DNA of 64,000 nt. Source: Escherichia coli 042 (GTDB lineage: Bacteria > Pseudomonadota > Gammaproteobacteria > Enterobacterales > Enterobacteriaceae). Made by a program: the position numbers and the translations under genes. The DNA lies in the NCBI RefSeq assembly GCF_000027125.1, contig NC_017626.1. One strand, written 5' to 3'. Numbering within the stretch: the first letter of the stretch is position 1; each line of letters starts with the position of its first letter. The notes under the pieces were generated by a model, which had not been told where the DNA came from, made no database searches, and saw only the letters and a program-made list of their open reading frames with translations. Below, piece by piece: positions 61,875-64,000 of the stretch.

Positions 61875-64000
61875 ATGTACACACAGACCCTGTATGAGTT
61901 AAGTCAGGAGGCTGAACGCCTGTTACAGCTTTCTCGCCAACAGTTGCAGTTACTGGAAAAAATGCCTCTCTCTGTCCCCGGAGACGATGCGCCACAACTG
62001 GCTTTACCCTGGAGTCAGCCCAATATCGCCGAACGTCACGCGATGCTGAATAATGAGTTGCGTAAAATTTCCCGACTGGAAATGGTGCTGGCGATTGTCG
62101 GTACCATGAAAGCAGGGAAATCAACCACCATTAATGCCATTGTTGGTACGGAGGTTTTGCCTAATCGTAATCGCCCAATGACTGCGCTGCCGACGCTTAT
62201 TCGCCATACGCCCGGGCAAAAGGAACCGGTACTGCATTTTTCACATGTCGCGCCAATCGATTGTTTAATTCAAAAATTACAACAGCGCCTGCGTGATTGC
62301 GATATTAAGCATCTGACCGATGTGCTGGAAATAGATAAAGATATGCGTGCGCTTATGCAGCGGATCGAAAATGGCGTCGCTTTCGAAAAATATTATCTGG
62401 GTGCCCAGCCTATTTTTCATTGTCTGAAAAGTTTGAATGATTTGGTGCGACTGGCGAAGGCGCTGGACGTCGATTTTCCTTTTTCTGCTTACGCCGCCAT
62501 TGAGCATATTCCCGTGATTGAAGTGGAGTTTGTCCATCTGGCGGGGCTGGAGAGTTATCCCGGTCAGTTGACGTTACTGGATACCCCTGGGCCAAATGAA
62601 GCCGGGCAACCGCATCTGCAAAAAATGCTTAACCAGCAGCTGGCACGCGCCTCGGCGGTACTGGCGGTGCTGGATTATACGCAACTGAAATCGATCTCCG
62701 ATGAAGAGGTCCGTGAGGCGATTTTGGCGGTGGGGCAATCGGTGCCGCTGTATGTGCTGGTCAATAAGTTCGATCAACAGGATCGTAACAGTGACGACGC
62801 CGACCAGGTGCGGGCACTGATTTCCGGGACGCTGATGAAAGGCTGTATTACGCCACAGCAGATATTTCCGGTGTCGTCGATGTGGGGCTACCTGGCGAAT
62901 CGGGCGCGCAATGAGTTAGCCAACAACGGTAAGTTACCACCGCCAGAGCAACAACGCTGGGTGGAAGATTTTGCCCATGCCGCGCTCGGCAGGCGCTGGC
63001 GTCATGCCGATCTGGCGGACCTCGAACATATTCGTCATGCTGCCGATCAGTTGTGGGAAGATTCGCTGTTCGCCCAGCCAATTCAGGCGTTGCTTCATGC
63101 CGCTTACGCTAACGCCTCGTTGTATGCTCTGCGATCTGCCGCGCATAAACTGTTGAATTACGCGCAGCAGGCGCGGGAATACCTGGATTTTCGTGCGCAC
63201 GGGTTAAACGTCGCTTGTGAACAATTGCGGCAAAATATCCATCAGATCGAAGAAAGTTTGCAGCTATTGCAACTCAATCAGGCGCAGGTGAGCGGCGAGA
63301 TTAAACATGAAATCGAGCTGGCCCTGACCTCCGCCAACCACTTTCTGCGTCAACAGCAAGATGCGCTGAATGCGCAGTTAGCCGCCTGGTTTCAGGATGA
63401 TTCGGAGCCGTTAAGCGAGATTCGTACCCGCTGTGAGACACTGTTACAGACGGCGCAGAACACCATCAGTCGCGACTTTACGCTGCGTTTTGCCGAGCTG
63501 GAATCCACTCTTTGCCGGGTGTTAACCGATGTTATTCGCCCCATTGAGCAACAAATCAAAATGGAATTGAGCGAGTCAGGGTTTCGTCCTGGGTTTCATT
63601 TTCCTGTTTTTCACGGCGTAGTTCCCCACTTCAACACTCGCCAGCTGTTCAGTGAAGTCATTTCGCGCCAGGACGCAATGGACGAGCAGAGCACGCGTTT
63701 AGGCGTTGTGCGTGAGACTTTTTCGCGCTGGTTGAATCAGCCCGACTGGGGACGGGGAAATGAGAAATCCCCGATAGAGACGGTTGATTACAGTGCGTTG
63801 CAACGAGCATTAAGCGCAGAAGTCGATCTTTATTGCCAACAAATGGCTAAAGTTCTGGCAGAGCAGGTCGATGAATCTGTTACGGCAGGCATGAATACTT
63901 TTTTCGCTGAGTTCGCTTCATGTTTGACGGAATTACAGACGCGTTTACGCGAAAGCCTGGCTCTGCGTCAACAAAATGAATCGGTGGTCAGGCTGATGCA
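61875..64000 (+). CDS. crfC: Dynamin-like GTPase CrfC (YjdA), N-terminal 708 codons; 3' end outside the window
   Basis: My translation from ATG 61875: MYTQTLYELSQEAERLLQLSRQQLQLLEKMPLSVPGDDAPQLALPWSQP... with G1 motif GTMKAGKST; frame open to the window end; not in the supplied ORF track. Confidence 0.85.
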   Translation, partial: MYTQTLYELSQEAERLLQLSRQQLQLLEKMPLSVPGDDAPQLALPWSQPNIAERHAMLNNELRKISRLEMVLAIVGTMKAGKSTTINAIVGTEVLPNRNRPMTALPTLIRHTPGQKEPVLHFSHVAPIDCLIQKLQQRLRDCDIKHLTDVLEIDKDMRALMQRIENGVAFEKYYLGAQPIFHCLKSLNDLVRLAKALDVDFPFSAYAAIEHIPVIEVEFVHLAGLESYPGQLTLLDTPGPNEAGQPHLQKMLNQQLARASAVLAVLDYTQLKSISDEEVREAILAVGQSVPLYVLVNKFDQQDRNSDDADQVRALISGTLMKGCITPQQIFPVSSMWGYLANRARNELANNGKLPPPEQQRWVEDFAHAALGRRWRHADLADLEHIRHAADQLWEDSLFAQPIQALLHAAYANASLYALRSAAHKLLNYAQQAREYLDFRAHGLNVACEQLRQNIHQIEESLQLLQLNQAQVSGEIKHEIELALTSANHFLRQQQDALNAQLAAWFQDDSEPLSEIRTRCETLLQTAQNTISRDFTLRFAELESTLCRVLTDVIRPIEQQIKMELSESGFRPGFHFPVFHGVVPHFNTRQLFSEVISRQDAMDEQSTRLGVVRETFSRWLNQPDWGRGNEKSPIETVDYSALQRALSAEVDLYCQQMAKVLAEQVDESVTAGMNTFFAEFASCLTELQTRLRESLALRQQNESVVRLM

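What the first reader, a model, noticed from the sequence alone, without database searches (positions are those of the whole stretch)
61875..64000. Dynamin-like GTPase CrfC runs off the window end and is missing from the ORF track
My own translation from the ATG at 61875 gives an open frame to position 64000 with a dynamin-type G1 motif. It is absent from the supplied track only because it has no stop in the window. Bacterial dynamin-like proteins have been linked to membrane repair and phage tolerance in other species, so the downstream partner gene would be worth inspecting outside this window.
Basis: partly seen in the sequence, partly recalled or inferred. Interest (0 to 1): 0.2.

Follow-up and report, generated by a model that had tools for sequence, protein, structure and literature searches.

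The report
Known E. coli gene crfC/rdcA, cut off
This is the ordinary, well-studied E. coli gene crfC (also called yjdA or rdcA), a soluble dynamin-like GTPase; it looks unannotated only because the window ends 34 codons before its stop codon.

Summary
An ATG at 61875, with a Shine-Dalgarno AAGGAAG 9 nt upstream, opens a frame of 708 sense codons to the window end. The product scores 1520 bits against NCBI's CrfC equivalog model (cut-off 1146), aligned 1-708 of 742 without indels. It carries all four GTPase motifs and the published clamp motif QLALP at 41-45. The DNA is present in 5417 of 5426 complete E. coli genomes.

The function is already published. With RdcB it activates the diguanylate cyclase DgcE, and it also binds the replication clamp. 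The window additionally holds, at 63848-63875, the exact published intragenic sigma-28 promoter that drives rdcB.

The hint of membrane repair or phage tolerance is not supported for this protein. It has no hydrophobic segment and only weak matches to defence models.

Two side leads lie outside the window. Distant relatives carry a dynamin-YjcZ-patatin phospholipase trio, and the clamp motif appears restricted to E. coli.

Verdict: already known, low interest.

The parts
61474..61874 (.). Divergent yjdM-crfC intergenic region, 401 bp and AT-rich (31.9% G+C against 52.4% for the window). It holds the still unmapped crfC promoter.
   Evidence: G+C. Gene borders. The only + strand sigma-70-like consensus match is TTGAAA-16-AATAAT at 61605-61632, which is not evidence of function. 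No sigma-28 consensus lies here. In strain MEW an IS1 sits in this spacer.
61860..61866 (+). Shine-Dalgarno sequence AAGGAAG of crfC
   Evidence: Read directly; there are 8 nt between it and the ATG.
61875..64000 (+). crfC (= yjdA = rdcA, b4109 in K-12), codons 1-708 of 742. The CDS would end at about 64103, outside the window.
61995..62009 (+). Codons 41-45, QLALP: the published beta-clamp-binding motif (the Q41A mutant is defective in clamp binding)
   Evidence: Position; the motif and the Q41A phenotype from PMC6374313. In the AF2 model it lies in the coil 30-47, with 10-residue block pLDDT of 61-78.
62100..62126 (+). G1 / P-loop GTMKAGKST (residues 76-84), including K82
   Evidence: G76, K79, G81, K82, S83 and T84 are invariant in 106 family members. 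The K82A allele was studied in PMC6510439.
62181..62183 (+). G2 / switch I threonine T103
   Evidence: invariant in the family. T103D abolishes the DgcE interaction (PMC6510439).
62580..62591 (+). G3 DTPG (residues 236-239)
   Evidence: D236, P238 and G239 are invariant.
62763..62774 (+). G4 NKFD (residues 297-300)
   Evidence: N297 and D300 are invariant.
62955..63998 (+). C-terminal helical region (residues ~361-708): helices 362-445, three roughly 55-60-residue helices (448-506, 513-567, 639-698), and a low-confidence insert at 603-634
63848..63875 (+). Intragenic sigma-28 (FliA) promoter inside crfC that transcribes the downstream rdcB/yjcZ: TAAAGTTC-N11-GTCGATGA(A)
   Evidence: Found by the consensus scan with 3 mismatches. 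It is identical to the 28-mer in Table 2 of Fitzgerald et al. 2014, '(yjdA)yjcZ', FAT score 19, expression (111)52 in wild type against (11)1 in the fliA deletion. FliA-dependent reporter activity is reported in bioRxiv 10.1101/188474. The exact 28-mer is present in 10 of 11 E. coli comparator loci.

Best explanation
Window 61875-64000 (+) is the first 708 of 742 codons of the E. coli chromosomal gene crfC (synonyms yjdA, rdcA). It sits in its normal place between yjdM and the rdcB-proP genes, and it is cut only by the end of the window. This much is shown here.

The product is a soluble, mitofusin/BDLP-type dynamin-like GTPase. It has an N-terminal helix, a disordered loop carrying the linear clamp motif QLALP, a G domain with intact G1-G4 motifs, and a long helical stalk. 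No membrane paddle was found.

The mechanism comes from published K-12 work and is inferred to hold here because every residue that work tested is conserved. RdcA dimerises or oligomerises and binds its operon partner RdcB. In its nucleotide-free state, reached by hydrolysing the inhibitory GTP (K82 and T103 are the residues involved), it docks on the membrane MASE1 domain of the diguanylate cyclase DgcE and activates it. This raises c-di-GMP and switches on csgD, curli and cellulose as cellular GTP falls on entry into stationary phase. Separately, the QLALP motif lets CrfC oligomers bind the beta sliding clamp and hold sister replication forks together. This is a secondary ('moonlighting') role.

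The 3' end of the gene also contains a FliA-dependent promoter that gives rdcB its own flagellar-regulon-linked transcription.
For: Identity:
- NCBIfam CrfC equivalog at 1520 bits against a cut-off of 1146, aligned 1-708 of 742.
- Dynamin_N at 67 bits.
- 98.6% nucleotide identity to K-12 and 99.6% to strain GF43; present in 5417 of 5426 complete E. coli genomes.
- Only 10 amino-acid differences from K-12, none at Q41, K82, T103 or the G motifs.

Synteny:
- phnC, yjdN and yjdM lie upstream in the window.
- rdcB, proP, pmrR and basSR lie downstream in all comparators.

Fold:
- AF2 model with pLDDT 88.3.
- Foldseek top hits are BDLP 2j68 (E 6.6e-12), IniA and SynDLP.

Mechanism:
- PMC6510439 reports epistasis with dgcE, two-hybrid interactions RdcA-RdcA, RdcA-RdcB and RdcA-MASE1, a functional K82A allele and a dead T103D allele.
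- An independent genome-wide transposon screen finds rdcA, rdcB and dgcE mutants low in c-di-GMP (PMC13031359).
- Clamp binding and the Q41A phenotype are described in PMC6374313.
- The promoter 28-mer is identical to the published one.
- The partner gene is conserved: a YjcZ-family gene lies within 5 kb in 79 of 80 Enterobacteriaceae species loci, and directly downstream in 77 of the 79 that could be scored.
Against: The last 34 codons, the stop codon and rdcB are not in the window, so intactness in this particular genome is inferred. No comparator is identical to the window: the best has 9 nucleotide differences in crfC. No biochemical statement was tested here; all are transferred from K-12. 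The two published functions are disputed against each other (PMC6510439 criticises the plasmid-based CrfC experiments). The crfC promoter itself is not located. RdcB's molecular role is unknown.
Confidence: 0.92

Rival explanations
1. The chromosome-partition role is the main function. CrfC oligomers bind DNA-loaded beta clamps through QLALP and tether the sister replication forks, and the c-di-GMP role is secondary.
For: Q41-L-A-L-P is intact in the window and sits in a flexible loop, as a linear clamp motif should. Delta-crfC and Q41A mutants produce anucleate cells, and CrfC colocalises with clamp foci (PMC6374313).
Against: The motif is not a family feature. Among 79 Enterobacteriaceae orthologues scored, none shows Q-L-x-L-P at the aligned position, and the two other Escherichia species read PLTLPW. 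It is also absent across 105 more distant relatives. By contrast the RdcB partner is conserved within 5 kb in 79 of 80 species loci. PMC6510439 notes that clamp binding is GTP-independent, that the knockout has no growth defect, and that most in vivo data used plasmid expression. An unbiased transposon screen recovers rdcA and rdcB with dgcE.
Confidence: 0.2
2. It is a membrane-remodelling or membrane-repair dynamin that contributes to phage tolerance, like B. subtilis DynA or the LeoABC ('Dynamins') defence system.
For: It has a dynamin-superfamily fold of the mitofusin/BDLP class. There are weak PADLOC matches to LeoBC (E 3.8e-6, 24.3 bits) and LeoA (E 7.5e-6, 23.3 bits). In six of eight distant-relative loci the DLP-YjcZ pair is followed directly by a patatin-like phospholipase, a lipid-directed enzyme. 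A family-conserved amphipathic segment at residues 569-587 remains unexplained.
Against: The highest 19-residue Kyte-Doolittle mean is 1.21, so there is no transmembrane or strongly hydrophobic segment. The literature describes the protein as lacking the typical membrane-binding motif and as soluble. DynA's defence needs its paddle. The PADLOC matches cover little more than the G domain, and RdcB matches nothing. No patatin gene lies within 5 kb in any of 80 Enterobacteriaceae loci. The locus is core chromosome between phn and proP, present in 5417 of 5426 E. coli genomes, not a variable defence island.
Confidence: 0.05
3. The gene is a pseudogene in this strain, truncated or frameshifted just beyond position 64000.
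For: The last 34 codons are unseen. The window's allele is not identical to any comparator.
Against: There are 708 uninterrupted codons aligned to the 742-position model without an indel. The ten E. coli comparators measured have exactly 742 aa and a near-identical tail. Differences from relatives include many synonymous changes (18 synonymous against 10 non-synonymous codons versus K-12).
Confidence: 0.02

Closest known systems
E. coli K-12 CrfC / YjdA / RdcA (b4109, NP_418533.1)
   Same: It is the same gene. Identity is 98.6% at nucleotide level over window 61044-64000, with 10 amino-acid differences in 708 residues. The start codon, the neighbours, QLALP, K82, T103, the G motifs and the internal FliA promoter are all the same.
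   Different: Allelic differences only, written as K-12 residue, position, window residue: Q134K, Y346N, K499N, V500A, L505W, V561I, E600D, T602M, T634I, V641A. W505 is rare among the comparators, being shared only with L013. The last 34 codons are outside the window.
Nostoc punctiforme BDLP (PDB 2j68/2j69), M. smegmatis IniA (6j72), Synechocystis SynDLP (7zw6), mitofusins/Fzo1 (9kfd, 6jfk)
   Different: Only 12-17% sequence identity; by sequence alone only the P-loop region matches BDLP. Those proteins bind and remodel membranes through a paddle or transmembrane segments. CrfC/RdcA has no hydrophobic segment and is reported to be soluble. Its known outputs are protein-protein contacts with DgcE-MASE1, RdcB and the beta clamp.
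B. subtilis DynA and ETEC LeoABC (the 'Dynamins' anti-phage system)
   Same: All are large bacterial dynamin-like GTPases encoded in an operon with a partner.
   Different: [quoted passage not shown] LeoABC pairs DLPs with each other. CrfC's partner RdcB (Pfam YjcZ, PF13990) is not a DLP. PADLOC matches are weak, at about 24 bits.
CrfC-like DLP + YjcZ + patatin three-gene modules in distant bacteria (loci L015-L017, L020-L022, L024)
   Same: The DLP family is the same (31-44% identity, with the same invariant G-motif residues), and the YjcZ-family partner is likewise immediately downstream.
   Different: Those operons add a patatin-like phospholipase of 344-360 aa directly after the YjcZ gene. 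E. coli and 79 other Enterobacteriaceae species have none within 5 kb. Those DLPs are about 800-840 aa and lack QLALP.

Membership tests
CrfC / RdcA orthologue group (NCBIfam NF007368, PRK09866) | Whole-protein score above the curated equivalog cut-off | tested here: met
   1520.2 bits against a cut-off of 1146; query 1-708 aligned to model 1-708 of 742
CrfC / RdcA orthologue group (NCBIfam NF007368, PRK09866) | Chromosomal position: divergent from yjdM, followed by rdcB (yjcZ) with overlapping stop and start, then proP | tested here: inconclusive
   The upstream half is met in the window: yjdM at 61138-61473(-), yjdN, phnC-P. The downstream half lies outside the window. It is met in all 11 E. 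coli comparators, and a TTGA overlap was read in GF43 and K-12.
CrfC / RdcA orthologue group (NCBIfam NF007368, PRK09866) | N-terminal beta-clamp-binding motif 41-QLALP | tested here: met
   QLALP at residues 41-45; motif as defined in PMC6374313
CrfC / RdcA orthologue group (NCBIfam NF007368, PRK09866) | Full length of about 742 aa | not testable with these tools
   The window ends at codon 708. Ten comparators are 742 aa by direct translation, and L011 is listed as 742 aa in the gene table.
Dynamin superfamily (large GTPases) | G domain with G1 GxxxxGK[ST], G2 Thr, G3 DxxG and G4 [NT]KxD | tested here: met
   GTMKAGKST at 76-84, T103, DTPG at 236-239, NKFD at 297-300; all invariant in 106 homologues. 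Pfam Dynamin_N at 67 bits against a cut-off of 27.
Dynamin superfamily (large GTPases) | Helical bundle or stalk following the G domain, with overall fold similarity to solved dynamin-like proteins | tested here: met
Dynamin superfamily (large GTPases) | Low-affinity nucleotide binding and oligomerisation-stimulated GTPase activity | not testable with these tools
   Biochemical property; GTPase dependence in K-12 is reported in PMC6510439.
Membrane-remodelling bacterial dynamin-like proteins (BDLP, DynA, IniA, LeoA type) | Membrane-binding paddle, hydrophobic loop or transmembrane segment | tested here: not met
   The maximum 19-residue Kyte-Doolittle mean is 1.21, in a G-domain strand. The literature describes no typical membrane-binding motif and a soluble protein. 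Caveat: the amphipathic segment 569-587 is unexplained.
Membrane-remodelling bacterial dynamin-like proteins (BDLP, DynA, IniA, LeoA type) | Paired with, or fused to, a second DLP | tested here: not met
   The downstream partner in relatives is a 292-aa YjcZ-family protein, not a DLP. PMC6104087 names CrfC as the exception among bacterial DLPs.
LeoABC / 'Dynamins' anti-phage system (PADLOC models LeoA, LeoBC) | Full-length match to the system's protein models | tested here: not met
   LeoBC 24.3 bits (E 3.8e-6) and LeoA 23.3 bits (E 7.5e-6), both starting in the G domain. RdcB has no PADLOC match.
FliA (sigma-28) promoters of E. coli | Match to TAAAGTTT-N11-GCCGATAA and identity with a site shown by ChIP-seq and RNA-seq | tested here: met
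   63848-63874 matches with 3 mismatches. The 28-mer at 63848-63875 is identical to the published (yjdA)yjcZ site. FliA binding in this strain was not tested.

The most novel reading that the evidence does not exclude
The CrfC/RdcA-RdcB pair of E. coli may be a reduced, rewired remnant of a wider three-gene module that is undescribed in the full-text library I could search: dynamin-like GTPase, YjcZ-family protein and patatin-like phospholipase. I found that module in six of eight distant-relative loci. On this reading, the ancestral module acts on membrane lipids, for example in GTP-gated membrane damage control or abortive-infection-type defence. Enterobacteriaceae lost the phospholipase and redirected the GTPase to the membrane MASE1 domain of DgcE. 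E. coli alone then added a clamp-binding motif.
Probability: 0.15. Interest if true: 0.5.

Novelty: already known. Interest (0 to 1): 0.1.

Why it matters
For the scan, it matters only as a bookkeeping point. A real, intact, well-characterised core gene was missing from the ORF track because the track drops frames that run off the window edge, so other window edges may hide genes in the same way.

Biologically the gene is already known: it links the cellular GTP level to c-di-GMP and biofilm matrix production through DgcE, and it has a reported role in keeping sister replication forks together.

The two side observations could be useful to specialists. The first is that the clamp motif appears confined to E. 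coli while the RdcB partner is conserved across Enterobacteriaceae, which bears on the published dispute over the protein's primary function. The second is the patatin-linked three-gene form in distant relatives, which suggests an ancestral lipid-directed function. Both rest on small samples and lie outside the window.

Tried and rejected
1. **Sigma-28 promoter upstream of crfC.** The consensus scan with up to 3 mismatches finds none in 61474-61874. This agrees with Fitzgerald et al., who state that an upstream FliA promoter had been 'incorrectly predicted'. The only + strand sigma-70-like match, at 61605-61632, is a bare consensus hit, so I do not claim it.

2. **Finding the window's own genome to read past 64000.** I looked up contigs encoding the window's exact PhnD. 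All eight loci returned have the expected downstream genes, but none is identical to the window in crfC, with 12-29 differences. GF43 is the closest, with 9 differences.

3. **crfC on plasmids.** The 5 'plasmid' places in the E. coli collection and the 11 PLSDB records include records of up to 4.9 Mb. All are typed non-mobilizable, and they look like mislabelled chromosomes or chromosome fragments.

4. **A solved structure.** None exists by sequence; only the P-loop region matches BDLP 2j68.

5. **Defence-system membership.** PADLOC gives only weak G-domain-level matches.

6. **Census of the patatin trio in one-genome-per-species contigs.** The scan kept only the 80 best of 316 loci, and all but one carry an Enterobacteriaceae record title (53-93% identity; the exception, L093, is titled Chryseobacterium). 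It therefore showed the absence of patatin in that family but could not measure the trio's frequency elsewhere.

7. **Placing the amphipathic segment 569-587 in three dimensions.** The model coordinates are not exposed to scripts.

8. **The second sigma-28-like hit, at 48280-48306(-).** It is not in the published FliA table, and 8 of 100 shuffles give at least two hits, so I treat it as chance.
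Full report
**Observation**

The sequence shows ATG at 61875-61877, preceded by AAGGAAG at 61860-61866. Translation from 61875 runs for 708 codons to the end of the window without a stop. The nearest in-frame stop upstream is TGA at 61698-61700, and there is no other start codon between it and 61875. No other frame across 61875-64000 holds an ORF longer than 88 aa.

The ORF tool states that it omits ORFs running off either end, and it lists nothing on the + strand starting at 61875.

**Identity**

- The product scores 1520 bits against NCBIfam NF007368, 'clamp-binding protein CrfC' (equivalog, cut-off 1146). It aligns 1-708 to model positions 1-708 of 742, so there is no indel and 34 residues are missing.
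- Pfam finds Dynamin_N at residues 72-277.
- megablast of 61500-64000 finds the DNA in 5417 of 5426 complete E. coli genomes. The best match is 99.6% identical, and it is annotated crfC everywhere.
- The whole window is collinear with K-12 MG1655 from about 4,258,013 to 4,329,260, that is dinF to crfC.
- Against K-12 the crfC part has 28 nucleotide differences, falling in 18 synonymous codons and 10 amino-acid changes. None touches Q41, K82, T103 or the G motifs.

**What lies beyond the window**

This genome cannot be read past 64000. In GF43, MEW and K-12, and in eight more loci that encode the window's exact PhnD protein, the gene table shows a 742-aa product. It is followed by rdcB (yjcZ, 292 aa, Pfam YjcZ), then proP, pmrR, pmrB/basS and basR.

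Direct translation confirmed 742 aa with a single terminal stop in ten of these comparators. The eleventh, L011, could not be located by my 30-mer anchor. In GF43 and K-12 the crfC stop overlaps the rdcB start as TTGA. None of these loci is identical to the window, with 9-29 differences in crfC. Intactness of the last 34 codons is therefore an inference, though a strong one.

**Anatomy**

The sequence motifs are:

- QLALP at residues 41-45;
- G1 at 76-84;
- T103 (G2);
- DTPG at 236-239 (G3);
- NKFD at 297-300 (G4).

A search of 1.84 billion representative proteins found 2000 relatives at E <= 1e-3 and 440 at E <= 1e-30. The relatives listed are mostly about 800 aa long, and the best-conserved part is query residues 1-510. 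In an alignment of 106 of them, the residues of all four G motifs are invariant.

An AlphaFold2 model built on that alignment is confident, with mean pLDDT 88.3 and pTM 0.85. It shows:

- an N-terminal helix at 2-29;
- a coil at 30-47 that contains QLALP;
- a helix at 48-66;
- the G domain at about 69-350;
- a helical region at 362-445 followed by three helices of roughly 55-60 residues (448-506, 513-567, 639-698);
- a low-confidence insert at 603-634.

**A second functional element inside the finding**

A sigma-28 consensus scan hit 63848-63874. The 28-mer at 63848-63875, TAAAGTTCTGGCAGAGCAGGTCGATGAA, is letter for letter the site listed as '(yjdA)yjcZ' in Table 2 of Fitzgerald et al. 2014. 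Its FliA ChIP-seq score is 19, and expression is (111)52 in motile MG1655 against (11)1 in the fliA deletion.

Those authors conclude that this promoter inside yjdA drives yjcZ, and that an earlier predicted FliA promoter upstream of yjdA was wrong. A follow-up study showed FliA-dependent reporter activity. Consistently, I find no sigma-28 match in the AT-rich 401-bp spacer upstream of crfC, which is 31.9% G+C. The promoter of crfC itself remains unlocated.

**How it works**

This section is established knowledge from K-12, transferred by inference. Pfiffer et al. 2019 (PMC6510439) report the following:

- rdcA and rdcB deletions phenocopy a dgcE deletion for c-di-GMP, CsgD, curli and macrocolony matrix.
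- RdcA self-associates, binds RdcB, and binds the MASE1 domain of DgcE.
- T103D abolishes activation and the DgcE interaction, whereas K82A is functional. The nucleotide-free form is therefore the activator and GTP is an inhibitor.

A 2026 genome-wide FRET-sorting transposon screen independently recovers dgcE, rdcA and rdcB among low-c-di-GMP mutants (PMC13031359).

The other account (Ozaki 2013, summarised in PMC6374313) holds that CrfC oligomers bind the beta clamp through 41-QLALP and keep sister forks together. Q41A and the deletion give anucleate cells. Because the window's allele keeps every residue these studies probed, I take both activities to apply. I rank the DgcE pathway as the main one.

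**New comparative evidence on that ranking**

In 80 loci from one-genome-per-species contigs (53-93% identity), 79 have a YjcZ-family ORF within the 5-kb flank. All but one of the 80 carry an Enterobacteriaceae record title. The one locus without YjcZ is truncated at the end of the match. In 77 of the 79 loci that could be scored, the YjcZ ORF lies directly downstream on the same strand.

None of the 79 orthologues scored has Q-L-x-L-P at the aligned position. Escherichia sp. E1V33 and E. whittamii read PLTLPW, and most other genera read VLPLHF. The E. coli representative was cut at its N-terminus and could not be scored. The motif is also absent in the 105 more distant relatives.

The alignment in this loop is gappy, so this is suggestive and not proof. 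It does fit the 'moonlighting' view of clamp binding. Escherichia orthologues are 742 aa, whereas almost all of those from other genera are 775-789 aa.

**The membrane and phage hint**

The hint is true for other species. B. subtilis DynA protects against phage (PMC8844932), and that protection needs its membrane paddle (PMC12998192). For CrfC the evidence is negative:

- no hydrophobic segment;
- the protein is described as lacking a membrane motif and as soluble;
- PADLOC matches only LeoBC and LeoA, at about 24 bits, and RdcB matches nothing;
- the gene is core chromosome, not an island.

One lead points the other way, but only for the family. I examined eight distant representative proteins at their encoding loci. 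Seven have a YjcZ gene directly downstream, and six of those seven have a patatin-like phospholipase directly after it. The two ORFs cut by contig ends were confirmed as patatin by Pfam.

No PADLOC model covers this trio, and two full-text searches found no description of it. Enterobacteriaceae lack the patatin gene. This is a sample of eight, it lies outside the window, and I did not follow it to function.

**Verdict**

The finding is a correct identification of a known, ordinary core gene clipped by the window edge. Novelty: already known. Interest: low.

Noticed in passing
L015 4001-8396; L016; L017 255-4682; L020 508-4876; L021 121-4584; L022 307-4271; L024 206-3959: In distant relatives of CrfC (31-44% identity), the DLP gene and the YjcZ-family gene are followed directly by a patatin-like phospholipase (PF01734, 344-360 aa), forming a three-gene module. 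It is present in 6 of 8 non-E. coli representative loci and absent from 80 Enterobacteriaceae loci. No PADLOC model covers it, and no paper in the searchable library links YjcZ with patatin.
   Followed up: partly
window 61995-62009 (codons 41-45); loci L025-L104: The published clamp-binding motif QLALP, with its essential Q41, is not seen at the aligned position in any of 79 other Enterobacteriaceae orthologues. The two other Escherichia species have PLTLPW and most other genera have VLPLHF. Escherichia CrfC is 742 aa, whereas almost all orthologues from other genera are 775-789 aa.
   Followed up: partly
window ~63579-63635 (CrfC residues 569-587): GFRPGFHFPVFHGVVPHF follows a family-wide alternating pattern, G-F-x-hydrophobic-x-hydrophobic-x-hydrophobic-P, with the proline present in 94 of 106 sequences. 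It lies in a coil of low model confidence (10-residue block pLDDT of 57-62 over residues 581-600). Next to it is a segment at 603-634 with pLDDT below 50. It may be a partner-binding or membrane-facing surface, but this is unexplained.
   Followed up: partly
window 48772-48981, with ORF 48801-49118(+): The D-allose operon and part of rpiB (K-12 4,306,822-4,313,662: alsK, alsE, alsC, alsA, alsB, alsR and the 5' part of rpiB) are absent. About 210 bp takes their place, leaving a 105-aa rpiB remnant ORF. The same junction occurs in other E. coli (L007, L010, L013), so this is a shared lineage polymorphism.
   Followed up: yes
window 27321-27664(+), 38199-38382(+), 61043-61120(-): There are seven copies of the REP-derived naRNA4 element (Rfam RF02564): four between yjcH and acs, two between gltP and yjcO, and one between yjdN and yjdM. 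Copy numbers differ from K-12. K-12 has about 420 bp more between yjdN and yjdM, more units after gltP and fewer before acs.
   Followed up: partly
window 57668-58447(-): phnE is an intact 259-aa ORF here, whereas K-12 MG1655 carries it as a pseudogene (phnE1, b4583).
   Followed up: partly
window 49568-58458: The phn (C-P lyase) operon is more diverged from K-12 (94.6-95.9% identity) than the flanks (97.4-98.6%), suggesting a recombined segment.
   Followed up: no
window 48280-48306(-): This is a sigma-28 consensus match with 2 mismatches (TAAAGTTTACTACCGCGCAGACGATTA) in the region that aligns with K-12 yjcS. It is not in the published FliA site table, and 8 of 100 shuffles give at least two matches, so it is probably chance.
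   Followed up: partly
window 19943-20083(-) and 40851-40905(-): Expected known RNA elements are present: sraL/ryjA sRNA at 153 bits, and a SECIS element at 87 bits (Rfam SECIS_2) at the position collinear with fdhF in K-12.
   Followed up: no
L002 3302-3999; L012 7288-8501: Insertion sequences sit in the spacers around this locus in other strains. An IS1 lies in the yjdM-crfC spacer about 150 bp upstream of crfC in strain MEW. A transposase with an rve integrase domain lies between yjdM and yjdN in GCA_025988545.1.
   Followed up: no
window 63387-63389 (codon 505): The window has Trp (TGG) at residue 505, where K-12, GF43, MEW and six of the seven PhnD-matched loci compared have Leu. Only L013 shares W505.
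   Followed up: partly
L093 (CACSKA010000007.1): A record titled 'Chryseobacterium sp. 18061' carries an enterobacterial-type crfC (58% identity) with the same match coordinates and identity as neighbouring Enterobacteriaceae entries. This is probably a mislabelled or contaminated assembly.
   Followed up: no
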